Assembly: GCA_036172245.1 (NCBI GenBank) | Contig: JAYWIR010000054.1 | Location: 62,001-126,000 of the forward strand | Length of the DNA stretch: 64,000 nt | Origin: Raillietiella orientalis | Lineage: Eukaryota | Direction: 5' to 3' | Part shown: positions 2,977 to 63,183 of the stretch, piece after piece | Position numbering within the stretch: position 1 is the stretch's first letter | Layout: every line of letters starts with the position of its first letter | Notes under the pieces: generated by a model | Told to the model about the DNA's origin: nothing | Database searches by the model: none | Seen by the model: the letters and a program-made list of their open reading frames with translations, nothing else | Made by a program: the position numbers and the translations under genes

Positions 2977-3660
2977 TGCGCGGGCTCGCTTCTCGTCGCG
3001 TCCGAGTATCCTGTTGGAACGTCAATGGGCTGCAGGACAACGAGAATAGGCGATTGGTAGCTAACTTCTTGAGCGACTTCGATCTGGCCCTGCTGCGGGA
3101 GATTCACGCTCTCTCCGAACAGGAAGCAGCCGATCTGGCAGTTCGCGCAGGCGGGAAGCTCCATTGGAGGTCAGGCTCCCAGAATACTTGCGGAGTCGCA
3201 TTCCTTGTCCGGGGCAGGGTGGCGGTGGCGGTGCGAAGCGTTTGTTTCGACGAGGAAGGTCGTGAGCCAACTTGTTCTCAAGTGGTCCGAATCGATCGAC
3301 CTTGTCGTCACGAACGTGTACGCGGCGTGCGGCTCCACGCGTCACACCGAGAAACTCGAGTTTTTCGAGAGACTGCGCGACCGCTGGCTTACAACTCCGG
3401 CCCCGACGTGGCTCACATCGTAGCCGGGGACTTAAACGTCCACACACTATCGGAGGAGACACACCGTCGCCGGGAGAAGCGGCTCGTGAACGAGGTGCGA
3501 GCATCAATGCACGCTTCGAATTTGCTGGCCGACGAACCTGGGATGCGTGCCTTGCCGGACCATGTGTTCTTCGACGATCACCTCTATTGTCGGGTGGGTC
3601 GAAGAATCTGATGCCGCCCGAGCTCTCCGACCACCAGAGGCTGGAGTTGATGTGGTCATT
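2961..3660 (+). pseudogene. LINE ORF2 apurinic-like endonuclease domain
   Basis: SCWNVNGL, LREIH, GVAFLV, NVYA (shifted frame), GDLNV, DHVF, SDHQRL. Confidence 0.85.
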
Positions 3661-12600: not shown

Positions 12601-12639
12601 ACCGGCCACCGTGAAAGTATTTGGCGAAATGGCCCGCGT

Positions 12640-13430
12640 CGGAGGCTACGTGACTGCTGAGGTCTCCGCGCGTGGCACCACCAAGCTTGGTGGTTTTGAA
12701 TACTTCTAAATGAATCGACTCAGTGCGTCGCAGAATCGAGTTCCTCCCGCAAGACGACGTTGGCTGTTCCGCATTCATTCGGGTGCGGCACGGATAGCGG
12801 TTGAAACCAGATGTCCCCGATAAGTGGCCGGAGCAATCGGTGTCGATTTCCGGGTTCGTCCTGGGATCAAGGATTGGGAAGTTCCCCCTCAGATTGTGCT
12901 AAGGAGTGCGGATCCTCCATTTCGGGGATATCCTCCGCGTCGTGCTGATGAAGATGTGTCGCCATGTCTCCAGAGAGTGCAAAGAAGTGTGCCGCTCCCT
13001 TCGGGGATGCCCTTCTGAGAAATATGGGAAGCGTTCCTTCGGGCTTCTCTTCAGAGGAGTAAACAGAAGGAGCACCCATGCAGGGGTTCCTTCCGGAGAA
13101 TGAAAATGGGGCGGATCCTCCGTGGCTCCTCCGGAAAGAATAAAAAAGGAGATTACTCCGCGGACTCCTTCGGAGACAACCATAGTGCAGGTGATCTTCA
13201 TTCCGGGCATACCTCCTCAGGCTTAAGAGGAACGGACTCCGAGCCCTTCCTGGATTCATAAAGCGGTCCCCTCCCGGGCACTCTCTATCTTGAAGAATCA
13301 ACACACTCTCGGGTGGCGTAGAACAGTGTTAAAGAGCTACGTAAGTTGTGTCGCCAGGAGTGTGATGATTCTTGAGGTCCTCAGCAAACCAAAAAAAAGT
13401 TGAAAGGAAAACAGCAAAGACAAAGAAACG
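12640..13430 (-). repeat. Interspersed repeat family copy A (probable retroelement 5' region)
   Basis: Homologous to 18380-19070 and 59990-60480 (shared SSEE(K/N)PEGTLP-like frame; GCTCTTTAA..ACGCCACCCGAG motif shared with the copy at 60330-60365). Confidence 0.65.
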
Positions 13431-13449
13431 AAGGATTGACATCATCCTG

Positions 13450-15680
13450 CGTTCATCAACCACTGCGCTTCCTGGATCTCGGGACGGCGGATCCCTCTCC
13501 CAGGGAAGGATGCGGCGGTTTCTCAGGATTCGCGGGTACCTTCGCACTGTCAAGGTTCATCCTGAACTCAGATGTGAAGTCGATGCCGAATGTCTGGGAC
13601 AACAGAATTGAGAACAAACCGTAAGCCCACGGATCGCTCCCACACTAGCGTTCGCCGTGTCTGGAGGACGCACGTTGGGTCACATCAAGTGTGTCCAGGC
13701 CTTCCTAGGATAGCGCAACGTCTCAGAAAGCAACCTAGTGCTGGAACTCACCGAAGCAAAGACCTCCGACTCGGTGGACCACGGCATGCTAGTGAAAATC
13801 CTTTGCAAGGTGGGCTTTCAAGAAAACGTACCTGCAGCACGCAGGACACGCCCTCGAAGAAGCAAATTTTCGACTCAACATCAACGATCAAAGCTCCGAA
13901 AGCATCAAGAGTTCGACAGGGGGACTACCATGCTCTTCTCCATCTACACTAAAGGAGCATTAAGCCCTCGCTGCCAACGAGGAACACCTCAAGGGTATAA
14001 CCTTGGAAGAGATCGTCACGCATATGGACGACGCCAACGATCTGCTGTTCGTAACGTTCTGCGGTCAGGGTCAACAGGCGCATCCTCGACATCGTCAAGC
14101 GTTGACTCGAACTAAAGCAAATCCGAGCAATCCTTGTCGGCCTGCTGGCAGCAAAAATGCCGGAGATAACCGCCCTCCACCGTTACGTCGGATTCCACGT
14201 CGTAGACAGGGCAAGGTACTTGGGAGCAGCCGTCGGCGGCGAAGACGCGACAGTCGAAATGCAGTGCCAGAAACCATCCTCGCCAAAATGAGGAAGGAGA
14301 TCCACCTGAACGAAATAGTGAACCTCTTCTTCGAAGACGGAAGCGGTTGGAACGGAGTGGTTGCACCGAAGTTTGTCGCTCCGATTCATCTTTCGTAAAA
14401 GTGCCAAAAGTGGCGACCTGAGGACTAGCCCAACGGAACTTGGTCTGGAGGGGAATAAGACCAAAGGTGAAAATCGTACCTATGCCTCCCGAGCTACAAA
14501 GGAGGGCATTAGGTATGCGAGAAAGCTCCCGTGCCGTGAAACTCAAGGACCTGGAGCAGCTGGCCTGATACGTCAGCAAGCAGGACGAATGTAAGCGCGT
14601 GTTGTTCTCAAATTGGTCCATGGAGCCGGCGGCCTGATGTCCGTCATGTCGTTCCAATCCGAAAAATGGAAAGTCGTCAATCCCTCCCGCCCAAGGATGC
14701 AAATCCTCGAGGAGACTTTGAAATTGAAGACCATCTCGACAAATCGACCCGAAAAGCACGAGATTGAGATGAGGAATGAGACAAGAATATCTGGTATAAG
14801 GTGCTCACCAAGGGGAATCCGTTGTTAGCAACTTCCGATGCGAAACGCACCGGGGAAATCACTCACTTGGTACGAGTCCTCGCATACAAAGGATACATGG
14901 AATGGTGGGTAACCCGCAAGTTTCATGTATTCCGCAAGCCTGAGGTAAGCAGTGGTCCAGAGTGAACAATTGAAGACACCAGACGGTGTGACTTCAGTGG
15001 AAGCGACAAGCAAGATACGTGGTGGAACAGCAGTCAACCCGCAGACCATCGGGAGAGTCTGCTAAAGATCCTTGTTACCACTTGACGTACAGGATTGCCT
15101 CCTGATGTTTTATCATGGAGGCATTCCATGCGGTGGTGGTACGGAAATCCCGACGACAGCCAGTGCCCAGCGTGTGGCCCAACCGAGGACGAACCACGTA
15201 TCCGCACCTGCCGCAACCTTGTTCAAGACTGGAAAGTGGCACGGTAAGCCATCGGAAACCAAAATAACAGATCCTGAGAAGGCAGTTTGGGGTGAAGGCG
15301 GTGCGCGCCCAGCTGCGACCCCGCTGTGAAGGCGTTCGTCGCGTATCTTCTGGAGAGCAGCATCGTCAGGAGGACGGAGTTGAAGAAGAGGACATCTGCA
15401 AAGAAAAAGCAACCATCCGTGAGCGCGAAAGAGTGTCCTCCTGCGCTCTTCTGCACCGCTCGACGATTGTGGCATACAAGGCCAGAGTGGCAAAAAGACT
15501 TATCCGCGCGCTTCGTGGAAAAATGGCAAGCGACCCACCGGTCGCCGATGCGAGAAAGTTTACTTGCTCGATTTCGTTGGTTGATACTGTACAACTTATT
15601 CACCCCACCGCAAACCGGACTGGGAAAACAGGAGTGTCCCAAAAGCACCTGCGGCGGCTCCCTCCCCCCTCCTTCCCGTG
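13450..15680 (+). mobile_element. Decayed LINE ORF2 fragment (RT and C-terminal region)
   Basis: AKTSDSVDHGMLVKILCKVGF matches EKVFDSVDHGMLLKILRKMGY at 49535. MLFSIY, THMDDANDLLF (decayed YADD) and RYLG follow in order. Confidence 0.75.
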
Positions 15681-15879
15681 ATCGTTGTCGGCATTACTGA
15701 GTGCATGCCGCCACGGAACGAGTCCCCTGTCGCAGCAGGCGAATCCAAGAGGAAAAGGCAGAAAGATGAAGATGCAAACGTCCTCCTCTCCTCCCGAATG
15801 CGAAGGCATGGCTGTGGGTTTGAACTGGACACAAAATGCTGTGGCTGGTACCCGTTGCGCCACTCCGCAGTCGCGGCGC

Positions 15880-16658
15880 GGTGGGGAGCGCAATGCCTCC
15901 AAGAAGCCGAGTGGGTGCGCAAATTTTGCATTCGCTCCCGTGACGGACCGATCGTGCGAGCGGCGGAGTGGTCCGATGCAGCCACCACGGCGGCCCCACC
16001 ACCACCTGGCGTCACCGCCAGCATTCCCACGAATATGTCGCGAGCCACCGAACGAGCCGTCTGACATAACGCACCTTCAGTGCTCCGCACAGTTTCCGCG
16101 GGCAACGTGCGATATCCCCACCGGGCATCGCCTCGCATTCGCTCTTTTGCCTTATAAGGACGGCCGCGTGGAGCTGACGGCGGTAAAACGTTGCTGTGCG
16201 GTGAAGCCTCTGGAGGTTGACCAACTTGCTTTCTGCAGACAGTTCGAAAAAAAGATGTTCGCACAAGAAATCAAGGAAACCTCGGGAACCGCAGGTTCGA
16301 ATCAGCTGAGTCCGCGGCAGAACCTCCATCCGTCACCACGTGATGTTCCAGAAAAAGATCAACGAGAAGCGGTCCAGGTTACCCATGCAGGAAGGACTTG
16401 GAATGATGGCATTTGTGCGACACCTGCAGTGCAACTTCAATTGGCTATCATCAGAGGGGATCTGGAGGCTGTAAAGGTGCTTCTGAAGAAAGGGACCGAC
16501 ACTTCGGCTCGGAATGAGCATGGGAGCACTGCGCTGCACCTCGCTGTTATGTACACGAAGAACTGGATCATAAAAATGCTTCTAAACCGCGACGCAGACG
16601 TGAATGCGACGGATGCGAATGGCATGGCACCCCTGCATATTGCTGCTCACAAAGGATC
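15880..16658 (+). repeat. Near-identical direct duplication of 62038-62816
   Basis: Constant offset of 46158. About 5 mismatches seen by eye in 779 bp. Confidence 0.95.
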
Positions 16659-17979
16659 GCTCCCTATCGTCTTCGAACTCCTAAATCGTCGCGCAGACGT
16701 GAACTGTGGAATACTCAAAAGGGCTTGCAAACTAAGAAGCTGGGTGCCTCCGAATGGGAGGCGCTCACCTTTTTTGGAGCATTGTAAACCCTACTGTTCT
16801 GGCCAGGAAACCCACGCGACAGATTTTCCTCATCCTGTTACTCGGAGAAAAGCACCTTATTTTCCTTACTCAAACGGAACAACTGCACTCCACATCGTTT
16901 CCCATAGAAAACTTCACGCATTGGCAAAGCTCCTGTTGAGCTACGGGGCGGACGTGAACGCGAAGGACGAAGAAAAACATACTCCTCTCTTGCTGGCAGT
17001 CCGCTTTCGAGACAGCATATTGGTGGGAATGTTCTTGAATCAGAAGGCCGACGTAAACGTTCTGACCGATTCCAGCGAAACGGCTCTTCACCTCGCTTGC
17101 GCGCAATTAAATGACGAAGTGAGAGCTGTTGTTCGCAACCCCTCTTACGAACCCGAGCTTTTTAGCGTGTACCCTTCGGATGCTGTAGTTGAGGAGCTTC
17201 TTTCGGATCCCAGGATCGATGTCGACATCAGGGATCCTTTCGGCAGAACAGCACTACATCGTGCTTGCGAGCAGCTAAGAGACCAGTCGGTCATCGATTT
17301 CCTCCGTAACAAGAAGGGCATTACACCACAGGCCAAGAAGAAAGCTATGTCTATCATATTCGAATCCGGGAGTGGGAATCTTGCAACTGTGAAGCTCCTC
17401 TTGAAACACAAGGCTGATGTGAATGCTGAGGACCTTCGTGGAAACACGCCGCTTCACAGGGCTTGCCTATTTGCCAACAAGGCAGTCGTTCTCACTCTTC
17501 TCCAACGTGGAGCAGATATGAACGCGGTGAACGACAAAGGCGAAACACCAGTGGACGTGGCTATCATAGCCCTCGGAAACCATGGTTTCATGAAGTCCCC
17601 TTCGTTTAACAATCCTATAAGGTGTGAATTCCCCATAGTGGCAGCCATGGTTGTCCTGGAGCACATGATGGAGTTTACGCATTTTCATCAGTATATGATC
17701 CGAGATAAGAACAGCTTCTCCTCTCGGAGCTGGGGTGTCAGAAAGCGTTCGGAGCAGTTTTTGGATGAATGCAAGAAGGAAATTGAGCAAATGAAGGATA
17801 AAAAGATCCCCGGGCTCGTTTGGCTCTACCACGCTTGCTACAAAAGGCATCAAAAGCTGGCTACGTACACGACAAACTCTGAGCTGCTCCAACTCATCCA
17901 ATCGAAAGAGTTCGAAAATCAGTTTCCACTATACGCCTTTATGCTCAGAAATCAATTCGATTGCGCGGAGGAGGTGTGA
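16255..17979 (+). CDS. Ankyrin-repeat protein with C-terminal PRANC-like domain (intronless CDS; F-box tail out of frame)
   Basis: About 8 ankyrin repeats (GSTALHLA, GMAPLHIA, GTTALH, HTPLLLA, GRTALHRA, GNTPLHRA). C-terminal FLDECKKEIEQMKDKKI...LATY...EFENQFPLYAFMLRNQF. The ORF is open from 15685; ATG 16255 is chosen as the probable start, just after a TTCTGCAG acceptor-like site. Confidence 0.85.
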   Translation: MFAQEIKETSGTAGSNQLSPRQNLHPSPRDVPEKDQREAVQVTHAGRTWNDGICATPAVQLQLAIIRGDLEAVKVLLKKGTDTSARNEHGSTALHLAVMYTKNWIIKMLLNRDADVNATDANGMAPLHIAAHKGSLPIVFELLNRRADVNCGILKRACKLRSWVPPNGRRSPFLEHCKPYCSGQETHATDFPHPVTRRKAPYFPYSNGTTALHIVSHRKLHALAKLLLSYGADVNAKDEEKHTPLLLAVRFRDSILVGMFLNQKADVNVLTDSSETALHLACAQLNDEVRAVVRNPSYEPELFSVYPSDAVVEELLSDPRIDVDIRDPFGRTALHRACEQLRDQSVIDFLRNKKGITPQAKKKAMSIIFESGSGNLATVKLLLKHKADVNAEDLRGNTPLHRACLFANKAVVLTLLQRGADMNAVNDKGETPVDVAIIALGNHGFMKSPSFNNPIRCEFPIVAAMVVLEHMMEFTHFHQYMIRDKNSFSSRSWGVRKRSEQFLDECKKEIEQMKDKKIPGLVWLYHACYKRHQKLATYTTNSELLQLIQSKEFENQFPLYAFMLRNQFDCAEEV

Positions 17980-18127
17980 AAATCTCTGCATGGTTCCTTT
18001 TCCAATTCCACCATCTGCTCGATCTTACGAACAGATGTTGATGAAACCTCCAGGGATGACGAGAACTTGCTAAACTTTGAAGAATCTCTCACAGATCGAT
18101 CAGATCTGGGATGAACTGGAGGGAAAC

Positions 18128-18169
18128 GTCCCGTGAGGACTGTCCCGTGAGGACTGTCCCTTGAGAACT
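18128..18169 (+). repeat. 14-bp tandem repeat, 3 copies
   Basis: GTCCCGTGAGGACT x2 plus GTCCCTTGAGAACT. Confidence 0.85.
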
Positions 18170-18379
18170 GCTGCTTTGTTTGAAAAGCGAACATGGCAAA
18201 ACGAGAAGCCATGTTGCACTTCACGGAAGGATGTTGTCTTCTTGATTTCGAATCAAGCAGATTTTCTTGTTTGCGCTTGAGAGGACCATCACCATCAGAG
18301 CAGGAGAGCAGAAGATCGTCACCGATCCAGGAGAGTTTTCTCGGAATAGGACACTGACCGGTGCACACGCAGCCCGCTT

Positions 18380-19070
18380 AGGAGGCCATGTGGTTACGGT
18401 GGTCTCCGCTCTTGGCGCCTTGCGTCGCGGGTTCGAATACTTCGGCAGAAACTCTGACGCCACTGCGTCGTTGGGTTCCCGAGTTTCTCCTGCAATGGCG
18501 CTGGTTGTCCTAATCATTCGGGCGTGGCACCGGTGATCGTTTAATCCGGGAGGCCCATAATGAGAGCCGGAACAATGGGACTTGACCTTCTGGTCCTCCC
18601 AGGAATAAAGGAGTGGGGAGTTCCCCCTCCGGTCGTGCAACGGAGAGCGGACCCCCCCACCGCGGACCCCTCCGGTTTCAAGATGGAGCAGGAACCCTCA
18701 CGGGAACCTCTCCAGTTGTTCAAAGGAGCGGACCCCCCCTGTTGCGAGGGTCCCTCCGAGTCGTCGCCTCTTCACGGAGTGCACAAGGAAACAAGCGAGA
18801 GCGATTCCCTGCGGGAAGCTGCAGCGCCCCTTCTGAGTTTCGGAAGCGTTCCTTCGGGGTTCTCTTCAGAGGAGTGAACAGGAGCGGTTCCCTTGCGGGT
18901 TCCCTCCGGAGAAGAAATTCCTACTAGCGGATCCTTTCCGGATTCCCTTTGGAGAAGTTGAAATGGCGTGGACCATCCCCCTTCCGGGGTGATCCCTCTG
19001 GAGGGGATGAGGAAGGAGATTCCCTTCGGAGACAACCAGTTGAGTTCAGGGAATGACCTGCAGACGTCAT
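18380..19070 (-). repeat. Interspersed repeat family copy B
   Basis: Colinear similarity with 12650-13200. Confidence 0.65.
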
Positions 19071-19079
19071 CCCAGGAAA

Positions 19080-19950
19080 CCATCACTTTTTTGTCAGCAT
19101 TGGACACGCTTTCACAGCTCCATGCCTTCTGCTACGAGAAACCAAGGGTATTCATCAAAAAGGCTTCAACGCTGATCTTCGTGCCCTTTGAGGAAATAAA
19201 GTTCGCTAAACCTCTTGCTTTCTCATCCCTTCTGACTGTGATGAATGCTCCGTCGCCGTTTCCGAATGGGCAGGCAATGGGCAAAACATCCTATCCTTCT
19301 TTTGCAGCACCAATACGACCGCAACTGGAATCCACTTCCGGTACATGTTGATTCGCGGAGACTGTCCTCGATCCAGCAGGCGAGGTGACACCTGTTTCAA
19401 TCTCTCAACGATTGCTCGATGTCTAACATAGAATAAGAATTAGTACCTCATGCAATGATTGAATACACGTTTCCTCCCAAGTACCACACCTTCGACACAT
19501 CCTGTCGGCTTCTGATCTTCGTTTAACACCTCGTGTTGGCAGAACGTTGATGAAGTCTTGCAGCATTGATGGAGCAATAGTCGACAAATCTCATGTAGTC
19601 CTCCTGATGTTAAGAAGTCGCTGCAGGCTTGGTGGAGTCCCACTCAGCTCCTGGCTTTCCTTTGATTTTCTGTAAGGGAAAACCGGGCAGATTCGTGCTG
19701 AGCAGCTCGCAATTTTGAGGCACTCACTTACCTCACTAACGGTTCCAGAACACTCGGTCCTCCACCACCGTCACCTTTGGCGAGTCATCAACTCCCGCGT
19801 CGCTGACAAAACGTTTCGAAGCTTGTCTTACCACTGTCCACATACTTTGCTAATCTCCACTCACTCGAGCCATGTCTCCCGTTGAAAATCTTCCGTTGAC
19901 CTCATGAGTTGGTGGTTCAACTCTCTCCTGATGCACCACCCGCTGGAAGA
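19080..19950 (-). mobile_element. Utopia/NeSL-like RLE-type non-LTR retrotransposon, 3' remnant
   Basis: Across frameshifts: NQRKA...SDFLTSG/DYMRFVDYCSINAARL/NVLPTRG...CRRCGTWEET...YVRHRAIVERL...ACPFGNGDGAF...VEAFLMNTLG, i.e. the zinc knuckle plus restriction-like endonuclease. Confidence 0.7.
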
Positions 19951-20599
19951 GAATCTTTGACCAGATGGTTCGCGATGACGTCTGGCGACGTCATGAGCTT
20001 GGAGCAGCTGCCCAAGGTGAAGGTGTCTGCTTCTTCAAAGAGCTGCGTCGTTCCCATTTGAAGATCACCATGATCTTAGCCACAAGGCTAACTGATCAAA
20101 GCGCATACAGAAGACGTGAACTCTCTCAGAACCAAACAGCCCCAGTGCGAAGGTGATGCTGCCATCACGCGGCGAGAGGAGAAGCCCTCGGAAACTGTTG
20201 GGATTCGTCCATCGGAAGAGTCCGTCCCGCCTGGTTCCACTCAGACTCCGATCGTGGTCAATTCTCTACGCATGGCGGTTGAAGTTCCTGCCAAAGTTGT
20301 GTGCAATTGATTCTAGTGCGATGGATCCTCCATCTGCTCCCTAGTGCCCACGTCCTTTTGCTGACCATTCCAGCCCTTTCGGCAATGCGCCAAACAAGAG
20401 GCGACGTCTCTCTTGCGCCAGGTTTTTACTCAAAGACGCCGGGACTTTCATTTAGAAAAACAAACTACAAGTTAGACGGGAAAAGACCCCTTGAAAGCCG
20501 AAAAATGCCAAAAAAGAAAAAGTTCATCCAGGGTTTCTATCGGCACAAGGTCGCTTCCTAAGATTAGGGAACAGAATGAAGGGGCAATAACCCAATGAA

Positions 20600-23020
20600 A
20601 TTAAAAAAGAAGGGAGGGATCGGGACCAAGAGTTTTTGGTTGAAAAGCTTCCATTCTTTCTCGAAGAGTCTCTGTTCAGCGGTGATCTCCCTGGCTACTC
20701 GTGGCAGACGAGGTAACCTTGCTGCTGTCCTCAAGAGGGCTGCTCCTATGCTGATGACCTCCCTTCAACGCGAACCAGACTCCAGCACGTGGCAGACTAT
20801 CATGGCGCGAATGCAGCATTCGTCGCAAAATCACAGCGCTCTTCTTCAGCCCGCCTCCGCTAAAGAAGCGTCGCAGGCAGTCCGAGGCGGCGTCTTGTGC
20901 TTGTCGGAGCGGCTGAGCGAGTCTCCGCCGCAAGTCCTCCAGGGCACCGCAGTCCAGCAGAAGGCGCGGGAGCGATTCCATCTTCCCCCTTCTGGAACAC
21001 TTCCGGGAGGCAACTGCCCCGAAATCCGGGTGTCTGCACCGGAATTTTCAATGCAGAAACAGCAGAACATTCTCTTCCCACCGTAGCGGTGACACGGAGC
21101 TGCACAAACACAGGGGAGGGACCACGAGTTCTTCGACGGTGGCACACCGAGGAGAACCAGCAGTGGAACTCCCATCTCATCGGTTGGTCGCTGTCATCAT
21201 TTGCCCTGATGGCACACAGAGCTGCAGCAAGGGGTGGGACGGCTAACCCGGACGACTGCGTTTAATCCTGCTGAAGATCTTCTAGCGGTTTGCGTAGGGG
21301 ATACACAGTTCCTCCATGCGCACTTCCAAAGAGGTGACCGAGGACTGCAGCGTCTCCTGCCACCAGGCGCCAGGTGTGTCGAGAAGGCAGGAGGACTGGA
21401 CTGCACTTTTCCGTCAGTCTTCTCAGCATTCACGTGCTACTGTTCACCTGCTGCCTTTCTTCTTGCGCCTCTTCTGCTTCACCAAGCTGAGCATCGCAAC
21501 ACCTTCTCTGGTGAATCTTGTGAGCAAACCACTTGACGAACTCCGGAAAGGGTTTACATGGGTGTTGGTTTTTTTTTGTTTTTCCTCTCGGAATGAAAAC
21601 TTTCTGCGTCATCGGCTGGAGAGCTCTGGCTGCTCGCGTCGCGCAACGGACTGCATCGGTGCATTCGCTCGTTTGGTCCATCGGAGCAGGTTCTATCTAG
21701 CTCTCGCGCACGCGTTATCAAGAGAGCCTCTCACCCTTCATAAGAGCGCACCATCGTGTCCGATCTCTTCCAAAGAAACTTGCCAAAGGTCAAGTACAGT
21801 GGCACCTTGGTACTCGACAGCTTTGGAACTCATCGAGTTCCAAAGCTGTACTCGTCGCGTTTTGTCGAGAAAGAAATGTTTCGACACTTTGCGCATGTTC
21901 GGAACTCGACACCTCGTTCTCATCATGGAGCAAGTGAACGCTTTCGTCCCATGGTAGCTCGCGAACAGAGCCGAATACTTCCACAGAGTGCCTCCTCAAT
22001 CCGTTTCCTTCTTTCTGAGCTTTCTGTGCATTTCGAGCGTTAATCATGGATCCGCAAATGGTTGAGAAATGATGCCACGAAGCCTGGAAAACAACTCGTT
22101 CGGTACTCCTCGGTTTCGGCAATCGTCACGAGTTCCGGAACAAATTACCGACGAGTAAGGAGGTGCGGCTGCACCTTTTTACAGACATTGGAAAACCTAA
22201 TTCTCGATTCTGGAAAAGCAGCTCGTTTTATTTTGTGACGCGGAAGTCAGCTGTGGCACGGAAACTACGGACCGGAAAACCTGCGGAAGTCAGCTGGAAG
22301 GGGGTACGCCTCAGGAATTCCTCCTCGTGATTATAACCACTCCTTCCCGCGGAAGAGGAAACGGTTCCATTTTCACAACCACGAAGGGCTCCCTGATTCC
22401 TGTTAAGTACTCTGGAGGGAAGACGGTTTCCACACGTGCCGTACCCGAAGCCCACCGGCCAACCAGAGTCATCTTGCGGGGAAACCCCCAGTGGGCGGAA
22501 GAGAAGAGTCGCGTAACTCACGACGCACCCCCTTTTCTCGGCGTCGATCCTCCACGCCGGCATGTGGAAGCCACAGCGCTCAGTGCCACTCGCATACACA
22601 ATAGCCACACGACCGCCAACGCGGGCATTCGGGCGTGGCACAAGCTGCTTGAGATTTCCGTCGCTAGTCCGGAGCACCCGAAATTATCCGAATCTTGAGC
22701 GATCGATCAGTGCACCCATGATGGTTTCTCATCCTCTTTCGTCTTCATCTTTTACACATTTCTTCACCTCGCCGGACACTCCGCTGTCCACGTCCAACTG
22801 CATCGACATTCGCGCTCGGGGAACGAGAAGACGGAAACGACTTCGGATGCTTGACGAACTTCGCGTCACTTTGCCTGTGGTCGAATGTTCGAGGCGAAGT
22901 CCGGGCGTGGTCCTTCGACTTTGTTGGTGGTTCGAAAGGCGCTTCTGTAGCGTCCGAGTTTCGGCAGACGCCCACAACTTCTTCCAACCATTTTCCATTT
23001 GTTTGTTTGTCTTTTTTTCT
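20600..23020 (-). mobile_element. Decayed L1/Tx1-like ORF2
   Basis: IDAEK..V and TGIRE (RT relics), RVQLWNSM (post-RT), and C-terminal LLLDCGALEDLRRRLA...CLRRFF homologous to 4780-5000. Confidence 0.6.
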
Positions 23021-25170: not shown

Positions 25171-27206
25171 ACGATGCCTCGGGGAGGGAAAAATCTTAAG
25201 CCCATTGAAGTTTATAGGGGAATGTATGAATTGGTGGACCAGGGCCACATTTTTTCAGTTCGGCTCGAACTCTCCCCTTTCCCCTCATCCTCTGACCTCA
25301 CGTTTAGCCGTTTGGGTTCTTTAACGAATCCCATGTATCGCAAGTCAGTGGCATTTTTTACCTTACATTGCAACGTAGAATTGTAACCATCGGTCGCGTA
25401 GAGTTGCGTTTCGCTGCCCATTGGCGATCCATTCTGCTAAAAGTCCTACTAGCTACCGTTGCAGCCAGGAGGTTGCCGGAGGTCTCTCTTTTGCAAGCAG
25501 CAGCATCGATAAAACCATTGCTGTTGGAGGAGACCTCCTTCATGGTAGCACATCTAGGGACATCCATGATCCACTCAATTCTCCACCAGTAAGACCTCTC
25601 ACTCTCCTCACTCTAGCTCCTGTTGACCCACAACATGATTTCAGGTCAAGACCCGAGTCTGCTAAATGAAGCATGAAGGTTTACCTTTGCGACAGCGAAA
25701 ATTCGTCCTCGCACTCCACAGTAACCGGCTGGTATTCTCATTGCTTGTATACACCTCCACCTTCTTGAAATTCTATTTTAGAAAATGTTAACTGAGAACT
25801 TAAAAATGTTAACTAACCTGATCATTGCACAGGAGTACAGACAGTACTTATATTAGTATATGTACAGCTGTAGCGTGTGCCTCAAAACACATTGTACTTT
25901 GGGGCAATGGTCGTATTTTTTTTGTAGCGTTGCTTTGAATGTTTCATGCCTTACTGAATGCTTTCTATTTAAGTCTGACAATTTATCTGACACGTATGAG
26001 CATCTTTTTTGCGTTTTTGAACCAAGACTTTAAAATTATGACTTCATATCTGAAATTCAATCATATTTTCATTTGGAAAGCAAACATGTAATGCACTGTC
26101 TTCTTTTGCATTTGGGCAACCCAACTTTGAGCTGTGATGGGATATTTGTGTCGTAAAAAAGGGTATTTTTTTAAGAATAAACTTGTGCCTGTAACCAGTT
26201 AGTTGGTTTGCACATTAGATTGTGAAACACTGTTCGCCTCAGAATGAGCTATGAAACTGAGTGCATTTGAGTTGCATGAATTGAGCAGCTACGTAAAAAA
26301 CTACATAATACTCTAGCGAAACCTTGAGAGGCAATTTGGAATTTGGCTGTGGGACGCTTAGCTGGCAGCATAAGAACAACTAACGGTAGAGGTATAATTC
26401 AAAGTAACGGAATAATTGTGCTTCAAAAGTTGGTTTTGTGTTACGCTGGAAAGTCAGTGAAATGCAGTCAGTCAGCAAGGAGTCATTGTGAACTTCATAA
26501 TCAAAATGCAAAGACCGAAATCCAAAGGCACTGGTCATATATGGAACTTTGGAAAGGTTGCGATATTTGGTATAGAAACTCAAGAATAGTAGCATTCAGA
26601 AAAGTAACGATCTTTGTTGATTCCGTTTTAGAATTAAGAGTCGGCGTTCGAAAGCTTTTAGAAAGATTTGATTTGGATTCTTGTCATTTGCCATACCATG
26701 GTTTTTGTTTTCATGCATTTTCTCTTCGGAAAAGTCTCAGTGCTGAACATGGCAGTTTCAGAGATGCAGGTTTCATTTATCAATCAGAGATTGCATTCAA
26801 GTATGAATTCTAAGATGCAGAATGCAAGTTGCTACATTCCCACGTTTCCAATTTTGGGCATTACCTAGAATAAAGTTTGAGAAATCGCTGAAGATATTAT
26901 GCTGTACTTTTCAATTAGGAAAAAAAGGTGCTCTCCTCCCCGACGAATAAGTAGAATAACAGGGGATGGCATAAGGAATCACATTTTCTTCTTCTTTTTT
27001 TTAGAATCGTGGGGCAGTTTGATTGTTTGGCAAAATGTAGCATTCTGTAGTCCACAAATCAATTTAATTTTGCACCACATGTGAAATCTTAATGTTGGCA
27101 CCTCTTAATGTTTTCGTGATATCGGAATGGTGATCTTATCAAGTATTGGGTAATGAATGTTAATCGACGTGTGGTTTAAGTGGAAACATGCTTTTATGCA
27201 TGTAAG

Positions 27207-29348
27207 ATGTCGGAATATTGGTTGATCTCTGCTCCTGGTGAAGAAACCTGTCAGCAAACTTGGGATGATTTAAACAGAGTCACTTCAAAAGGCGGTAGTG
27301 ATTTATGCACCAATTACAAGTTTCATGTGCCGGATTTGAAGGTACGGTTAGCCGTTCAGCATTTTATTCTATAACCTTTGCAGCATACTTAGATGCAGTG
27401 AGATCGATAAGAGCTCACTAAGAATTTTGAGCTTGGAGTTGATTCGAGTTCTGTGTGAATTCGTATGGAAATGTGATAACCGAAAATGAATGTTTCCTCC
27501 GATTTTAGGTTGGAACACTCGATCAGCTAGTTGGTTTGTCCGATGATTTGGGGAAACTCGATAACTATGTCGAAGGAGTTACAAGAAAGATCGCCCAATA
27601 TTTAGGAGAAGTACTTGACGATCAGAGTTATAAGCTTGCAGAAAATTTGTTGGCGAATGGAGGTAATGCAAATTTTAACGAATGTTTGCAGCCAAACCAC
27701 CATGAATTCAGTTCAATTGCCCCAATACATCACCCGATTTCAATGGGACATGGCCAAATATCCAGTGAAGCAGTCCTTGCGAACCTTGTATGAAATCGTT
27801 AACAAACAGATTACCCAGATCGAAGGTGATCTGAAAACCAAATCGCAAGCATATAATGATTTGAAAAATAACCTACAATCAGTTGAAAGGAAGCAGACGT
27901 GAGCACCTTTTTTTAATCTCATGCATTGTGATTCTTGAAGCAGTTTTGTTTGTATTTGAGAAAATACGTTGTAGCATAATAGTGATGTTAATTTGAACTT
28001 TGTTCTGAAAGCAAAATGTTTTTGACTCTCCAAGAGTTTTGCTATTTGCAGAAAAATCGTCATTTGAATTGTTGGGATGCAAAACTAATTCCTGTAACTT
28101 GAGTGTCCAGGTTGATAAGAACCTGAAGTTTTCATCTGATTGCATTTGTTAATGTTGATGTTGTAATTCATGTTTCTGAGATAACCAGGAAGCGTATTTA
28201 CATGAAGCTATCCAAAGCTGGGCATCGAGTTTTCATGACCATGTTAATGTTCATGTAAATGTTTCAAAGTCTATGTTGCAGAGAGTAGTTTCTGCATGTG
28301 AAATGATAAAACATTTTATTCCTGGGTCTCCACATTTCCTTGCTATGAACATATAAGATGACCCCTTACCAACTGGTGACTCTATGCAAACTATGCAAAC
28401 CTCAAAAACATATATTTCAGTGGCAGTTTGACTTCCCGTACACTGTATGACATTGTCAAAAAGGAAGACTTTGTGTTAGATTCTGAATATTTGATAACTC
28501 TTCTAGTTGTTGTACCCAAGTAAGTATTTGCATCGTAAAATCTCTCTAAATATACTGTAGAGCCAACTATCATGACTGGTATGCCAACTATGAAAAGTTA
28601 TCTAGTAAAGTGGTACCTCGTTCAACAAAGCTTGTTTTTGAGGATCAGGAGAATGGCTTGTTTACAGTCACCTTGTTCCAACTTGTTCAGGAGGAATTCA
28701 TTAACAAAGCTCGCGAGCATAAGTAGGTTTGGCTGGCTAGTGCAAAACTGAAATGTGCTGCCAGATTCTTAGTTCGTAAAGACTTTACCTACAATGAAGC
28801 TGAGTTGGCAGCAGGGAAAAATAAAGTGCTGGAACTGGTCATGAACAAAAAAAAGCAATTTGTGAGCTCAATGATTTTTTAAAGATTCAAAACTTGAGCT
28901 GTTTTTAGGGTCCCCTGGTGAGATGGCTCAAAGTGAATTTCAGTGAGTGTTTTACTGCTTGGATCCATGTGAAGGCATTGCGTGTGTTTGTGGAATCTGT
29001 GCTTCGGTAAGCCATTCTTGAAGGGAAACATGATACAGAAGACAAACCAAGCATAGCTATGGACTACCTGTCAATTTTCAAGCCATGCTGCTTCATCCAC
29101 ATAAGAAGAGTCAGAGACGGCTGAAGGAAATACTTTACCAGCACTATGCCCACTTGGACAACAGTGCCATGCATGCACAAACTTCTGATTCTCAGGTCAG
29201 CTGTATTCAGGAAATGAATGAATGCATGATGGGTTGGTTACAGATGGTCGACATTCCTGGTCTGAGCATGGGTCAAATGGAGTATCACCCATATGTGTGC
29301 TACAAGATCAATATTGATATGCTGGAACAGCCTTCAAGCAGATTGTAG
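27207..29348 (+). CDS. ATP6V1C1: V-type proton ATPase subunit C (9 coding exons)
   Basis: Exons 27207-27341, 27509-27662, 27712-27898, 28421-28519, 28561-28722, 28765-28861, 28909-29006, 29057-29195, 29244-29348, all GT-AG. Splices to [11 protein letters not shown]...[18 protein letters not shown]...FQWDMAKYP...[23 protein letters not shown]. Confidence 0.97.
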
Positions 29349-30008
29349 TCTAGATATTTATCATGTGTAGTCATATAGTCAAAGCATGTCCCAAGTTGGG
29401 ATTTTGCTGCCATGTAAGCATAATTTCCAAGTATGTGATACTACTTGCAACTGCCTTTGCAGCAAGAATTCCAATAAGTCTTTTTTTTTTTTTCCCCCCC
29501 CCTTTTAAATGCAAATTCAAGAAATAGACGTTTTGGATCATTGTAGAATATAGTCTTTTGTGAATGCTGGAAATTCGGATTATTAACCCTGGTAATGAGC
29601 AGTGCTCTTGCATCAAAGTAGAATTCCATGGAAATTCTACTTTGCGTATGCATCATTTTGAAAAAAGAATTTATTGGCAATAACTGCTATGATTTCCACA
29701 TGCTTATTGCAACCTTGCTCTTTTTCTTATCAACAACTGACAGCTCTTACGATAAAAACTATAAATTGTGTAGCTGGAGTTTGATTGTTTCTGCATGGGA
29801 TTTTGGTAGCCTTTTGTATAAAACACTTATCCCATTTTGGGGTGAGATTGTTGTGCACAACGGAGGTAGGTTGTATGGAGTGCTTTTTGAGCCATAGCAT
29901 GCACAATTTGGTAATAGAATGCATAAGGTCTATATTGTTCTATAAGAATTTGTAACAAGATACAATCAGATATGTTTTGGTTTATTGGCCACATAGAAGG
30001 ATGGATGC

Positions 30009-31385
30009 TCACGGAGGAAGCATGGTGCTTATCTCCACCACGTTCTGGAGTAAACTTTTATTGTGAACGAAAACAGCAAAACGAAAAATGTCACCTTGTT
30101 AGCATCCAGCACACTTTTCCAGTCCTGCTGAGAAATCTTGGCAGCAGCTAAGGCAATCAGGTCCAAGGCCTTCTCACTAGATTCCTGAAGAGTTTTCATT
30201 ACTTTCTCCACACAAACATGATCATCTGCTTTCCAACAATCATAATCAGTCACTATTGCCACATTAGCATAACTGAGACCTGCTTCTTTAGCTAACACAA
30301 CCTAGAGCAAATGAAATGTGTCTGCTGTTCTGTTTGCTCATATGCACCTCAGGCACTGTTGTCATGTTTACCACATCGGCACCCCACTGCTGGAACAAGC
30401 GACTTTCTGCTGTCGTAGAAAATCTTGGCCCTTCAATGGTAACAGTAGTACCAGTAGGATGATGACGCAGGTTTAGTTCTTTAGCACATTCCAAAAGAAC
30501 TTCACAGGTGGATGAACAGAACGGTTTTTGCATAGGAATGTGGCATACACCTTTAGGAGAGTGTTCTTCACCATCATAGAAAGTGTTCTGCCTTTTATTT
30601 GTTCTGTAAATGTAATCAGGCAGTCTCAAAAAAAAATTGTACAGTCTGTGGTTACCTATCAATAAATTGGTCAAGGATCACAAGGTCACCCGGATAGATG
30701 TTTTCTTGTAGAGAACCACAGGCAGTTGTTGCCAAAATGTGTGTACATCCAGCTTCTCTCAGTGCCCAAATATTGGCACGATAATTGACTTTAGAAGGCA
30801 TGATGGTATGGTATCGGCCATGCCTAAGAAGCCATAACTAGAATATGTCTTTAAATTTTGGCGAAAATATACGAGAACTATCGAGCAAGTACATGCGAGG
30901 TACAAGGAGCACTATACCTGCCCAGTATGACACAGTCAACACCTTTTAATTTTCCTTGTATGAGGGCATCCGATGGTTTTCCAAATGGGGTTTCCACATA
31001 CCATTCCTGCCTTCCCGTTATAAAATCGCTATTATGATAGCCCGTACCACATATAACGGCCACCTGAGTAAGAAAAAAAAAAAAAGGAAGTAAACTGGCA
31101 CTTTTCAGTGAGGATTCTATTTTTTTTTTTTTTTTTTTGGAAACATCACTAAATCGTTTATGAACAGAGCGATTCTCGGCATTTCCGATTACATACACGA
31201 CAAAAGGCAACCACCGGAAAAACACGGGTCGACAAATCTACAGTGTGTTTCCACTCCCACCCCCTGCATGGGGATGTGTTAACGAACAGCACACGGGCGT
31301 TCCACGGAAGGGAACAAACAAAGGCAAAGCTCGGTATCTCCTCTGCGTGTATTGAATTTGCACAACTAACCTTCGCGGACACCAT
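30009..31385 (-). CDS. MTAP: S-methyl-5'-thioadenosine phosphorylase (6 coding exons)
   Basis: Exons 31385-31371, 31063-30918, 30823-30656, 30603-30348, 30301-30095, 30044-30009. Motifs [51 protein letters not shown]. Confidence 0.96.
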
Positions 31386-31590: not shown

Positions 31591-31611
31591 ACTACCACCA
31601 CCACCACTACT

Positions 31612-31644
<33 letters not shown>

Positions 31645-31650
31645 ATTGTT
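31591..31650. repeat. Compound trinucleotide microsatellite (ACY)n-(GTT)n
   Basis: Read directly; lies in the GC-rich region upstream of MTAP. Confidence 0.9.
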
Positions 31651-45253: not shown

Positions 45254-46215
45254 ACCACTGCTGCAACCTCGACACGCAGAGACTCCACGTTCCACAACCC
45301 GAAGTTAGCCGTCTGGTCAGTCGATCGGACTTCCTCGGTGTGCAGGCGTTCAATCTTCTATTTCCAAGAAAACTCTTTTGGACTGGTGACGATTTTCAGG
45401 ATCATCTTCTGCGCCCTTGCTCTCATGGTGATGGTCGTCTTAAGCGACGCAAGAGAAGCACTCGTTGAATCTCTTGCGTCGTTTGGAAGTCGGCAGGAAA
45501 TGAAGGTGATGTTGTTGTACCCTCGTCATGAGCTCTGACAGCAACGAAAAGTTCCAACCATCGGTTGCTCACCGAGAAGACGTAGTTTGGTGTAACGAGA
45601 CGCCCGCTGTCCGATCCAGGCGACGTGGTCCGAGCGAGAAGGTCTTCTTGGCTTGAAATCAAGAAGATATCAGAGGAACATCCTACGCGAAGTGCCCCAG
45701 GGCTTCCTGTTTGCCATTTTCACTCTTGAAACGAAGCAGAAGGTCCTAAGGGAAGGTTCTTTCCAAAGTTTTCCCTCCGGATCATCTCCGACCAGATCAG
45801 CTGCAGCTTCGAGATTCTACGGAGTTCTGTAATTCCTTCTCGCCCAGACAACTGGGGATTCCGTCAGCTCAAGTGTATGGCAAAATCGAGCATCTGTTGG
45901 AGGGGAGGGGGGATGAAGAACATGCTGGAACTTTTCTAGGAGCTTCCTTTTCCATTTCCAGCGAACTGCTGCCTCATTATGGAGGCGTCTGTCTCAACTT
46001 CGAACCCTCATCAGTGGATGGCTCTGCCGTGCGTGCAGCAAGTCCCCGACGGTCTCTTAGGAAACCGTGGCAGAGAAAAATGAAGCGTGCTCTCTAATCT
46101 TTTTGTCTTTCATCCTTTTGAATTGCGTAATCACTTCGACCACGAGCCGCGTCGAACGTTCGTCCTCACAGCCGCCAAGCGATCGTAAATTCCCTCGTCT
46201 CACATACAGAACAGG
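45254..46215 (-). pseudogene. PRANC domain and 3' flank of a third ankyrin-PRANC paralogue
   Basis: YVRRGNL...FKRMKDKKI, LCHGFLRDRRGLAART, DASIMRQQF, RKLLEK align with the 17690-17979 translation. The DNA at 45340-45900 aligns with 18010-18368, with an extra block of ~170 bp. 45254-45353 is 98/100 identical (inverted) to 63180-63279. Confidence 0.7.
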
Positions 46216-62412: not shown

Positions 62413-63183
62413 ATGTTCGCACAAGAAATCAAGGAAACCTTGGGAACCGCAGGTTCGAATCAGCTGAGTCCGCGGCAGAACCTCCATCCGTCACCACGTG
62501 ATGTTCCAGAAAAAGATCAACGAGAAGCGGTCCAGGTTACCCATGCAGGAAGGACTTGGAATGATGGCATTTGTGCGACACCTGCAGTGCAACTTCAATT
62601 GGCTATCATCAGAGGGGATCTGGAGGCTGTAAAGGTGCTTCTGAAGAAAGGGACCGACACTTCGGCTCGGAATGAGCATGGGAGCACTGCGCTGCACCTC
62701 GCTGTTATGTACACGAAGAACTGGATCATAAAAATGCTTCTAAACCGCGACGCAGACGTGAATGCGACGGATGCGAATGGCATGGCACCCCTGCATATTG
62801 CTGCTCACAAAGGATCCTTCCCTGTCGTCTTGGAACTCCTAAATCATGGAGCAGACGTGAACTGTGCAGTGCGCGTGGAGGATGACGCCAGTTCGCAGGG
62901 TTCCCTACTCCAGAAGAGGAACAAGGGAATTCCCGGGTCCGCTCCACCTTCCGATGACGGAGCGCCTGACGGGTGCGAAGGGAGAGCTCCTTCGAAGTAC
63001 GTGAATGGAACAACTCCCCTTCACGTCGCCTCCTACAAAGGGCGCTGCAAAGTGGCGAAGTTCCTGCTGGAACACGGAGCCAACCCCAACGCGAGGGACG
63101 AGAATGGGATGACCCCTCTACTGGTAGCCATTAGACGGGAAAATATCGGAGTGGTGAGTCTCCTCCTGCATCACAAAGCTTGA
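62413..63183 (+). pseudogene. Truncated ankyrin-repeat paralogue (no PRANC)
   Basis: Near-identical to the 16255 gene up to 62816, then divergent ankyrin repeats (NGTTPLHVA, ENGMTPLLVA). It stops mid-repeat at LLHHKA*, where it joins family 3'-flank sequence. Confidence 0.75.

What the first reader, a model, noticed from the sequence alone, without database searches (positions are those of the whole stretch)
16255..18100. Intronless ankyrin-PRANC gene of Wolbachia/poxvirus type in an animal genome
Seen: ankyrin repeats followed by FLDECKKEIEQMKDKKI...LY...KLATY..N...EFENQFPLYAFML, with no introns in 1.7 kb although neighbouring genes are intron-dense. Known: ANK-PRANC (F-box-like) proteins occur in poxviruses and Rickettsiales (Wolbachia, Orientia) and were laterally acquired by Nasonia wasps. 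Inference: a horizontally acquired effector family now resident in this host.
Basis: partly seen in the sequence, partly recalled or inferred. Interest (0 to 1): 0.8.

Follow-up and report, generated by a model that had tools for sequence, protein, structure and literature searches.

The report
Ankyrin gene with half a PRANC tail
A single-exon ankyrin-repeat gene in an arthropod-like genome ends in the front half of the tail known from Wolbachia-phage and poxvirus ankyrin proteins. It lacks the F-box-like piece that links those proteins to the ubiquitin machinery, so it is one more example of a known class of lineage-restricted ankyrin genes.

Summary
An open frame at 16255-17979 (+) encodes 574 residues with at least 8 ankyrin repeats and the quoted C-terminus, beside an intron-split V-ATPase C gene.

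- Pfam PRANC does not match. A profile built from 48 relatives, without the window, hits the C-terminus at E=4.6e-24. 20 of the 49 remote relatives carry Pfam PRANC.
- The only phage-record matches are three Wolbachia phage WO ankyrin-PRANC genes.
- The match covers only the front part of the module. The F-box-like end (LPxxCxxxIxxYLxxxDL) is absent, and I found it in no frame of the window.
- A WO protein cut at the same point also fails Pfam PRANC, so the Pfam miss follows from truncation.

There is no close donor: best identity is 28-37%, the trees are unresolved, and the composition is host-like. Horizontal origin therefore stays plausible but unshown here.

The gene belongs to a small local family. 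A second copy, 46 kb away, shares an 832-nt tract at 98.4% identity and is cut by a repeat. A third possible remnant is degenerate.

Verdict: a new member of a known kind (CLANK-like ankyrin/PRANC genes), probably unable to recruit Skp1. Interest is modest.

The parts
15877..16708 (+). Tract shared with copy 2 (62035-62866). It covers 378 nt upstream of the ATG plus codons 1-151 and is probably a gene-conversion tract.
   Evidence: 98.4% identity over 832 nt with 13 differences, 7 of them in codons 135-146. No DNA similarity was detected beyond 16708.
16255..17979 (+). Coding frame of the ankyrin / half-PRANC gene, 574 aa including stop, in one exon as read.
   Evidence: P(no stop) is about 2e-11. 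The codon-position GC pattern begins at 16255.
16423..16710 (+). Ankyrin repeats 1-3 (residues about 57-152).
   Evidence: The best Pfam Ank_2 stretch, residues 224-313 of the 737-aa frame, equals residues 61-150 here. Repeat limits were set by eye.
16711..16869 (+). Non-repeat loop of about 53 residues between repeats 3 and 4. Copy 2 has a loop of similar length but different sequence.
   Evidence: Translations. It is gapped in the alignment to the WO protein.
16870..17589 (+). Ankyrin repeats 4 to about 9 plus a capping half-repeat. Repeat 6 carries an insertion.
   Evidence: Pfam Ank, Ank_4 and Ank_5 stretches. The fold of residues 350-574 shows helix pairs with pLDDT around 90. Limits were set by eye.
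17590..17745 (+). Helical linker between the repeats and the PRANC-like module. It aligns with the same region of the WO protein.
   Evidence: The fold has pLDDT 49-65 here.
17746..17970 (+). Front part of the PRANC-type module: C..E...MK..KI, then N, then FP.Y....QF. It stops before the F-box-like motif.
   Evidence: Homologue profile E=4.6e-24 over positions 7-88 of 140. Nearly invariant C, E, N and Y are kept. The fold has pLDDT 82-93.
17971..17979 (+). End of the frame: GAG|GTG TGA. The stop doubles as a possible splice donor (GAG|GTGTGA).
   Evidence: Sequence. No downstream exon with the tail was found.
18098..18368 (+). 3' flank shared, at 72-79% identity, with 45798-45338 (-). It was probably part of the ancestral duplicated unit.
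62413..63183 (+). Copy 2: the first 256 codons of a paralogue, about 5 ankyrin repeats, ending where a repeat begins.
   Evidence: ORF and Pfam Ank hits. tblastn gives 65% identity over residues 1-265. 63176-63283 matches 45357-45250 (-) at 96%.
45338..46160 (-). Possible third, degenerate remnant: the gene's 3' end plus flank.
   Evidence: Colinear weak matches run from 17791-18368 to 46113-45338. The peptide RSTRLVVEVITQFKRMKDKKI aligns to RSEQFLDECKKEIEQMKDKKI at E 0.31. The profile hit on 46060-46398 (-) has E 0.26. Each match is weak on its own.
12632..13105 (+). Dispersed repeat. Other copies lie at 18372-18917 (67-82% identity) and 60115-60277, flanking the ankyrin copies.

Best explanation
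This is a nuclear, single-exon, lineage-restricted ankyrin-repeat gene of the ankyrin-PRANC class, the class that includes Wolbachia phage WO genes, poxvirus ANK/F-box genes and the wasp 'CLANK' genes.

Shown here: it sits in an arthropod-like animal genome. It encodes about 9 ankyrin repeats, a helical linker and the front part of the PRANC-type helical module. It ends just before the F-box-like helices.

Inferred: in poxvirus proteins the F-box-like end is the piece that binds Skp1. This protein therefore most likely cannot dock to an SCF ubiquitin ligase. It would act, if at all, as a plain ankyrin binding or scaffold protein, or as a competitor for the targets of full-length relatives.

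It belongs to a small local family that evolves by duplication, gene conversion and decay. One copy is intact, one is cut by a repeat, and one possible copy is a degenerate remnant. The colinear 3' flank of that remnant suggests the truncation predates the duplication; this too is inferred.

The family's ultimate origin by transfer between Rickettsiales or their phage and arthropods is plausible from the literature. The data obtained here neither show it nor give its direction.
For: Gene and repeats:
- Open frame and ankyrin repeats.

Homology of the C-terminal module:
- phmmer with the last 137 aa against 1.84 billion representatives gave 49 hits at E<=1e-3, the best 1.9e-9. 20 of the 49 carry Pfam PRANC.
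- A profile of 48 homologues, without the window, hits the ORF at E=4.6e-24, 82 bits, profile positions 7-88.
- Specificity of that profile: only 11 of 120 generic ankyrin proteins hit, all at E<=1e-30, and 6 of those 11 were in the training set. The other 109 gave nothing at E<=10. The real tail scores 87.3 bits against a maximum of 9.7 in 1000 shuffles.
- tblastn against 50,697 phage records found 3 hits, all Wolbachia phage WO, at E=1e-5 and 34.8% identity.
- The alignment to WO gwv_1092 is colinear over 536 aa and ends at WO residue 868 of 946. Its Pfam PRANC lies at 842-916.

Missing tail:
- 51 of 55 homologues continue for 42 or more residues after the window's stop. They carry LPxxCxxxIxxYLxxxDL there.
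- A tail profile finds nothing in any frame of the window.
- Reading through the stop with X does not extend the match past position 93 of 140.
- Control: the WO protein cut at the same point gives no Pfam PRANC hit. Its removed tail gives F-box 0.0021 and PRANC 0.0096.

Fold:
- The last 88 aa fold into six helices with pLDDT 83.7.
- The weak top BFVD matches are mostly poxvirus ankyrin/PRANC proteins. PDB, which is rich in ankyrin chains, returns none.

Host context:
- V-ATPase C exons have best hits in insects at 65-71% identity.
- LINE endonuclease and RT fragments are present.
- ORF GC is 0.50 against flanks of 0.52-0.53.

Family dynamics. The diverged 61 codons of copies 1 and 2 give dN 0.48 and dS about 1.4.

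Skp1 binding through the F-box end: passages read in PMC4353913.
Against: - No expression or splicing data could be had. The stop overlaps a plausible donor (GAG|GTGTGA), so a further exon cannot be excluded.
- Pfam PRANC does not match.
- Two of the three local copies are broken, so this copy may also be decaying.
- dS is near saturation and rests on 61 codons.
- The review read says cowpox CP77 still binds Skp1 with an F-box reduced to its first helix. Loss of binding is therefore inferred only from the absence of the whole motif.
- The BFVD matches are all above E=0.5.
- The host is not identified. No whole genome is held, so the family's size in the host is unknown.
Confidence: 0.6

Rival explanations
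1. A decaying relic. The gene lost its F-box-like end through a 3' truncation and is now a non-functional or young pseudogene whose frame happens still to be open.
For: The tail is absent in every frame. Copy 2 is cut by a repeat at 63176, and the possible third copy is degenerate. No RNA-holding run was listed, which is no evidence either way. No close orthologue appears in any protein search.
Against: 574 codons without a stop have P about 2e-11 at local composition. The ankyrin repeats still score E about 1e-50. The conserved C, E, N and Y of the module are kept. Codon-position GC is coding-like. dN/dS is about 0.34 on the diverged part against copy 2. If the remnant at 45338-46160 is real, the truncation is older than the duplication, yet the frame has stayed open.
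Confidence: 0.25
2. The gene has a second exon. The frame is spliced at GAG|GTGTGA (17973|17974) to a downstream exon that supplies the F-box-like end, which would make it a complete ankyrin-PRANC protein.
For: A donor-like sequence overlaps the stop. The neighbouring gene has short introns. One remote relative, P0164, also ends at this position. That could reflect an exon boundary in a gene model.
Against: The tail profile finds no candidate on the + strand anywhere in the 46 kb downstream. The best + strand pieces score E 4.6 to 9.3 over a few positions only. In the tree P0164 groups with full-length proteins, so its end is independent of the window's or an artefact.
Confidence: 0.08
3. An ordinary, vertically inherited animal ankyrin gene, for example of the ankyrin-SOCS-box or ANKRD type, whose C-terminus only resembles PRANC by chance.
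For: The ankyrin part finds thousands of generic ankyrin proteins, such as ANKRD52 and PP6 regulatory subunits, at E down to 1e-78.
Against: Those hits cover only the repeats, 61-71% of the query. The hits that reach 88-96% coverage are the ones with the PRANC-type module. No SOCS box or other C-terminal family is listed at E<=10. The module profile is specific. No orthologue above 32% identity exists in 5.8 billion clusters.
Confidence: 0.04
4. Bacterial or phage DNA, as contamination or a recent Wolbachia insertion, mis-assembled into a host contig.
For: The nearest named relatives are Wolbachia phage WO genes. Records labelled as an insect can hold near-identical WO genes, as P0003 and P0007 do.
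Against: Identity to WO is only 25-35%. ORF GC is 0.50 and matches the flanks. The FYMINK/GARP amino-acid ratio is 0.99, against 1.19-2.5 for the eight bacterial rows. The flanks hold host repeats and a paralogue 46 kb away. No bacterial gene was seen among the 150 frames scanned.
Confidence: 0.02

Closest known systems
Wolbachia phage WO ankyrin-PRANC protein gwv_1092 (KX522565, WOVitA1) and near-identical genes in Wolbachia-like genomes (L006, L011)
   Same: Same order of parts: ankyrin repeats, helical linker, then the C..E...MK..KI / N / FP.Y module. The alignment is colinear over 536 aa. These are the only phage-record hits.
   Different: Identity is only 25% overall and about 35% in the module. 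The WO protein has 946 aa and more repeats. It continues for 78 residues that carry the F-box-like motif and the Pfam PRANC signal. Its composition is AT-rich.
Chalcid wasp CLANKs and other insect ankyrin genes with PRANC-like C-termini (Pers & Lynch 2018, PMC6161386; passages read)
   Same: Lineage-restricted nuclear ankyrin genes in multiple copies. Their C-termini are only cryptically PRANC-like and often not called by Pfam, and some lack the C-terminal region altogether. Named insect members, from Lasius platythorax and Microplitis demolitor, hit the same profile at E<=1e-30.
   Different: The host here is not one of the listed insects, and its V-ATPase C is only 65-71% identical to any insect's. 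This gene is read as a single exon, whereas the paper reports introns in almost all CLANKs. No expression or developmental role is known here.
Poxvirus ANK/F-box (PRANC, PF09372) host-range proteins (review PMC4353913; passages read)
   Same: Ankyrin repeats followed by a helical C-terminal module. The weak top structural matches of the 88-aa tail in BFVD are mostly poxvirus ankyrin/PRANC proteins.
   Different: There is no Pfam match. The truncated F-box that binds Skp1 in the viral proteins is absent here. All structural matches are at E>=0.5.
Animal ankyrin-SOCS-box (ASB) proteins
   Same: Ankyrin repeats plus a short C-terminal adaptor module for a cullin-RING ligase, which is the same logic as ANK/F-box.
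   Different: No SOCS-box match appears among the families listed at E<=10. The C-terminal module belongs to the PRANC-type family instead.

Membership tests
PRANC domain proteins (Pfam PF09372) | Match to the Pfam PRANC model at or above its gathering score (25.8 bits) | tested here: not met
   No hit on the whole protein at E<=1 or on the last 137 aa at E<=10. In the control, a true WO PRANC protein cut at the same position also gives no hit.
PRANC domain proteins (Pfam PF09372) | C-terminal F-box-like motif (LPxE/CxxxIxxYLxxxDL), the Skp1-binding part | tested here: not met
   The protein ends at profile position about 88-93 of 140. 51 of 55 homologues continue for 42 or more residues. No tail was found in any frame or on read-through.
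PRANC domain proteins (Pfam PF09372) | Sequence homology of the region after the ankyrin repeats to that of PRANC-bearing proteins | tested here: met
   Homologue profile E=4.6e-24. 20 of 49 relatives carry PF09372. WO phage hits at E=1e-5. Specificity and shuffle controls.
PRANC domain proteins (Pfam PF09372) | N-terminal ankyrin repeats | tested here: met
   Ank_2 E=2.9e-50, with 8 Ank stretches.
ANK/F-box SCF substrate adaptors (functional class) | Binds Skp1 / SCF1 | not testable with these tools
   No host Skp1 sequence was in hand and no complex job was run. Loss of binding is inferred from the missing motif, based on the review passages.
Laterally acquired insect ankyrin genes (CLANK-like) | Lineage-restricted nuclear ankyrin genes, in several copies, with a PRANC-like C-terminus | tested here: met
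   No relative above 32% (whole protein) or 37% (module) identity. A paralogue and a possible remnant lie in the window. The context is nuclear.
Laterally acquired insect ankyrin genes (CLANK-like) | Phylogenetic nesting with Wolbachia/phage sequences that shows transfer | tested here: inconclusive
   Trees on 83 columns put the window on a long branch (0.86-1.14) with no starred clade. Bacterial rows fall in three places. The careful search did not finish.
Ankyrin-SOCS-box (ASB) proteins | C-terminal SOCS box | tested here: not met
   No such family is listed for the whole protein or the C-terminus.

The most novel reading that the evidence does not exclude
The F-box-less 'half PRANC' is not decay. 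On this reading it is a working architecture: a folded six-helix cap on an ankyrin array, kept under selection in a lineage outside the insects known to carry such genes. It would act independently of SCF ligases, for example by holding or masking the targets of full-length ankyrin-PRANC effectors from Wolbachia-like symbionts or viruses. That would make it a host-encoded decoy derived from the invader's own gene family. Short ORFs with only the front half also occur in two Wolbachia-like genomes (L010, L014). The half module may therefore be a recurrent form.
Probability: 0.12. Interest if true: 0.6.

Novelty: new member of a known kind. Interest (0 to 1): 0.33.

Why it matters
Ankyrin-PRANC genes are a textbook case of gene traffic between intracellular bacteria, their phages, poxviruses and arthropod hosts. 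This window adds a host, apparently outside the insects listed in the paper read (PMC6161386), in which the family is nuclear, compositionally assimilated and evolving by duplication, gene conversion and decay.

It also gives a clear example where the ubiquitin-ligase docking end has been lost while the rest of the frame stays intact. That is useful for asking what the front half of PRANC does by itself.

It carries a practical warning as well. Pfam PRANC misses such truncated members, because its signal sits largely in the F-box-like end.

None of this would surprise a specialist.

Tried and rejected
Searches and look-ups that gave nothing:
- Whole-genome search: no genome is held for this window. 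I could not census the family in the host.
- Sequencing runs: none was listed for 13000-21000, and no RNA holder was listed.
- Word-indexed search with residues 470-574: 4 candidates, none at E<=0.01.
- The listing of cluster members for organism names of the remote relatives: the database was switched off.
- ESM Atlas on the C-terminus: the top clusters were unrelated-looking (rotifer hypotheticals, a Campylobacterota glycosyltransferase) with 153 or fewer shared features. I treated this as no lead. The Atlas gave no usable hit on a V-ATPase C exon.
- Earlier findings of this scan: nothing on this genome or this sequence. The word search returned giant-virus and phage tail motifs that do not bear on this gene.

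I replaced it with 150 stop-free pieces chosen by length and composition. Exons in shorter or Arg/Pro/Ser/Gly/Ala/Cys-rich pieces were not scanned.
- The search for related loci with alignment A2 in genome contigs and viral contigs: no stretch was conserved enough. Poxvirus or other viral loci were therefore never fetched, and no poxvirus sequence is in the trees.

Analyses that were inconclusive or negative:
- Foldseek of the 88-aa tail against PDB found nothing at E<=3.
- A profile search of solved structures found only designed ankyrin proteins, through the ankyrin columns of A2, and nothing on the module.
- The careful IQ-TREE search did not finish in 300 s. The quick tree was used instead.
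- An in-frame intron in the loop 16711-16869: the one GT...AG pair with a pyrimidine tract (16706-16779, 74 nt) would shift the frame onto a stop. Rejected by eye.
- The upstream ATG at 15766 as the start: rejected on flat codon-position GC.
Full report
**What is there.** On the + strand a frame runs from ATG 16255 to the TGA at 17977-17979 and encodes 574 aa. From stop to stop it is open over 15682-17979.
- The stretch before 16255 has flat GC at the three codon positions (0.62/0.56/0.63). From 16255 on, the pattern is coding-like (0.57/0.39/0.54).
- At local composition, 574 codons without a stop have P about 2e-11.
- Pfam finds ankyrin families at E down to 2.9e-50, with 8 Ank stretches. 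By eye there are about 9 repeats plus a capping half-repeat.
- The repeats are interrupted by a loop of about 53 residues after repeat 3 and by an insertion in repeat 6.

**Context.** The window is eukaryotic and most likely arthropod.
- V-ATPase C (PF03223) is split into at least four pieces at 27180-29345 (+) with short introns.
- One of its exons is 65-71% identical to V-ATPase C of many insect orders, and no hit is closer. The host is therefore probably an arthropod that is not annotated in the protein collection. I did not identify it.
- PNP_UDP_1 (30291-30677, -) and PAP2 (36083-36403, -) exons are present. So are LINE endonuclease and RT fragments at 47904-49984 and 2928-3608.
- The ankyrin ORF has GC 0.50, like its flanks at 0.52-0.53, and CpG observed/expected of 0.94. 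The V-ATPase C region has GC about 0.38 and CpG o/e of 0.49.
- One search scanned 150 stop-free pieces chosen by length and composition, not every frame.

**Is the C-terminus PRANC?** Pfam PF09372 gives no hit, either on the whole protein at E<=1 or on the last 137 aa at E<=10.
- phmmer with the last 137 aa against 1.84 billion representatives gave 49 hits at E<=1e-3. The best was 1.9e-9, with 22-37% identity and none at E<=1e-10.
- 20 of those 49 carry Pfam PRANC and 39 carry ankyrin repeats.
- A profile built from 48 homologues, without the window, hits the ORF at E=4.6e-24 (82 bits).
- That profile is specific. Of 120 generic ankyrin proteins it hits 11, all at E<=1e-30. Six of the 11 were in its training set. 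The other five include proteins named from Lasius platythorax and Microplitis demolitor. The remaining 109 give nothing at E<=10.
- The real tail scores 87.3 bits against a maximum of 9.7 in 1000 shuffles.
- tblastn of the tail against 50,697 phage records returns three records only, all Wolbachia phage WO, at E=1e-5 and 34.8% identity. One is annotated 'ankyrin repeat with PRANC domain protein'.
- The whole protein aligns colinearly with that WO protein (gwv_1092, 946 aa) over 536 residues at 25% identity.

**What is missing.**
- The alignment to the WO protein ends at its residue 868, while its Pfam PRANC spans 842-916.
- In the homologue profile the window covers positions 7-88 of 140.
- 51 of 55 homologues continue for 42 or more residues beyond the window's stop. 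That stretch holds the conserved LPxxCxxxIxxYLxxxDL, the F-box-like motif.
- A profile of that tail finds nothing in any of the six frames of the 64 kb. Its only hit at E<0.5 is the FP.Y part of the ORF itself.
- Reading through the stop with X does not extend the match past position 93.
- Control: the WO C-terminus cut at the equivalent point (residues 760-868) gives no PRANC hit at E<=10. The removed tail (869-946) gives F-box 0.0021, F-box-like 0.0051 and PRANC 0.0096. The uncut C-terminus gives PRANC 3.6e-8.
- The Pfam miss is therefore explained by truncation, and the missing piece is exactly the F-box-like one.

**Fold.**
- Residues 350-574, folded with a 25-row alignment, give mean pLDDT 78. 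The module reaches 82-93 and the linker 49-65.
- The last 88 aa alone give pLDDT 83.7 and six helices.
- Foldseek against BFVD finds no match at E<=1e-3. The weak top list (E 0.5-5) is dominated by poxvirus ankyrin, PRANC and CP77 proteins.
- The same model against PDB returns 18 unrelated weak rows and no ankyrin chain. The viral matches are therefore unlikely to come from ankyrin helices.
- This is suggestive only. No solved structure matches the module by sequence.

**Origin.**
- In a sample of 301 genomes of the order that holds G001, 4 have a match to the module profile at E<=1e-3. All four are about 1.2-1.3 Mb.
- I built trees on the 83 shared columns, with 59 and then 62 rows, using the quick method. 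The careful search did not finish.
- The first tree left out P0124, P0133, P0137, P0143 and P0148, whose matches were weak or multi-domain. The second also left out L008 and L014, which were long branches.
- The trees are largely unresolved. The window sits on a long branch (1.14, then 0.86) inside no starred clade. In the first tree it has SH-aLRT 81 with four unnamed proteins. Bacterial rows fall in three places.
- Two proteins labelled Eurosta solidaginis are nearly identical to the WO genes in this module (branch lengths 0.011-0.023). They are probably Wolbachia-derived.
- The window's FYMINK/GARP amino-acid ratio is 0.99, against 1.19-2.5 for the bacterial rows.
- A recent transfer is thus excluded. 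An old transfer, in either direction, is compatible with the data but not shown.
- Passages of PMC6161386 describe the same situation in chalcid wasps, Pseudomyrmex, Bemisia, Ceratina and Microplitis. They include members without a recognisable PRANC or without any C-terminal region.

**Local family.**
- 15877-16708 matches 62035-62866 at 98.4% over 832 nt, with 13 differences, 7 of them in codons 135-146.
- The tract starts 378 nt upstream of the ATG and stops abruptly. Beyond it the two copies share no detectable DNA similarity and are 46% identical over 61 alignable codons, with dN 0.48 and dS about 1.4, near saturation.
- I read this as old paralogues with a recent gene-conversion tract over the promoter and 5' coding part.
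- Copy 2's frame ends at 63183, where a repeat begins: 63176-63283 matches 45357-45250 (-) at 96%.
- Copy 1's 3' flank (18098-18368) matches 45798-45338 (-) at 72-79%. Weak colinear matches extend into the coding end: 17791-17807 matches 46113-46097, and a peptide match has E 0.31.
- This suggests a third, degenerate, inverted remnant. The spacing between the KDKKI motif and the flank is similar in both (291 against 298 nt). If that holds, the truncation predates this duplication. The point is weak.
- No other ankyrin similarity exists in the window.

**How it most likely works.**
- Shown: an intact frame, good ankyrin repeats, a confidently folded front half of the module, and no F-box-like end.
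- From the review passages: poxvirus ANK/F-box proteins bind Skp1 through the truncated F-box at the extreme C-terminus and use the repeats for substrates.
- Inferred: this protein cannot recruit SCF. If functional, it is a stand-alone ankyrin binder.
- Rivals: a decaying relic (0.25), an unseen second exon spliced at GAG|GTGTGA (0.08), an ordinary animal ankyrin gene (0.04), and contamination (0.02).

**Verdict.** This is a new member of a known kind, and interest is modest.

Noticed in passing
window 26000-30000: The V-ATPase C region is AT-rich (GC about 0.37-0.38) and CpG-depleted (o/e 0.49), while the window as a whole and the ankyrin ORF are not (0.93, 0.94). This is the pattern expected if housekeeping gene bodies are methylated in the germ line and the ankyrin gene is not.
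   Followed up: partly
window 708-1007 (+): A 100-aa open piece gives a marginal match to Pfam Viral_Rep (PF02407, circovirus-type Rep) at E=1.3e-5 and 25.8 bits, against a cut-off of 26. It lies next to LINE-like ORFs. The neighbouring frames gave no further Rep signal. It could be a fragment of an endogenous viral element or a chance match.
   Followed up: partly
window 46671-49984 (+) and 2928-3608 (+): LINE-like retroelement fragments. One has an ORF with an RRM-like match (46671-47198), an AP-type endonuclease (47904-48668) and an RT split over frames (49191-49984). A second endonuclease fragment lies at 2928-3608, downstream of an ORF (1528-2484) that had no Pfam hit.
   Followed up: no
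P0003, P0007 versus L001, L006, L011: Two 944-aa proteins recorded as 'ankyrin-3-like [Eurosta solidaginis]' on a 309-Mb contig are almost identical in the C-terminal module to Wolbachia phage WO gwv_1092 (tree branches 0.011-0.023). This looks like a Wolbachia insertion or contamination in that assembly.
   Followed up: partly
L010 (G002:C13) and L014 (G255:C1): Two Wolbachia-like genomes hold short ORFs (197 and 246 aa) that match only the front part of the module profile (positions 8-94 and 15-86). Front-half-only forms therefore also occur in bacteria, as fragments or as real genes.
   Followed up: no
window 12632-13105, 18372-18917, 60115-60277: A dispersed repeat of about 500 nt (67-82% identity) lies about 3.2 kb upstream and about 0.4 kb downstream of copy 1, and about 2.2 kb upstream of copy 2. 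It may mark the ancestral duplication unit.
   Followed up: partly
window 31470-31980: Long trinucleotide-type runs read as poly-Thr/poly-Val (or poly-Leu, poly-Ser, poly-Cys, poly-His in other frames) on both strands.
   Followed up: no
P0164: This 396-aa remote relative ends within 8 residues of the window's stop-equivalent and has a similarly GC-type amino-acid make-up (FYMINK/GARP 1.03). In the tree it groups with full-length proteins P0138 and P0154 (SH-aLRT 94).
   Followed up: partly
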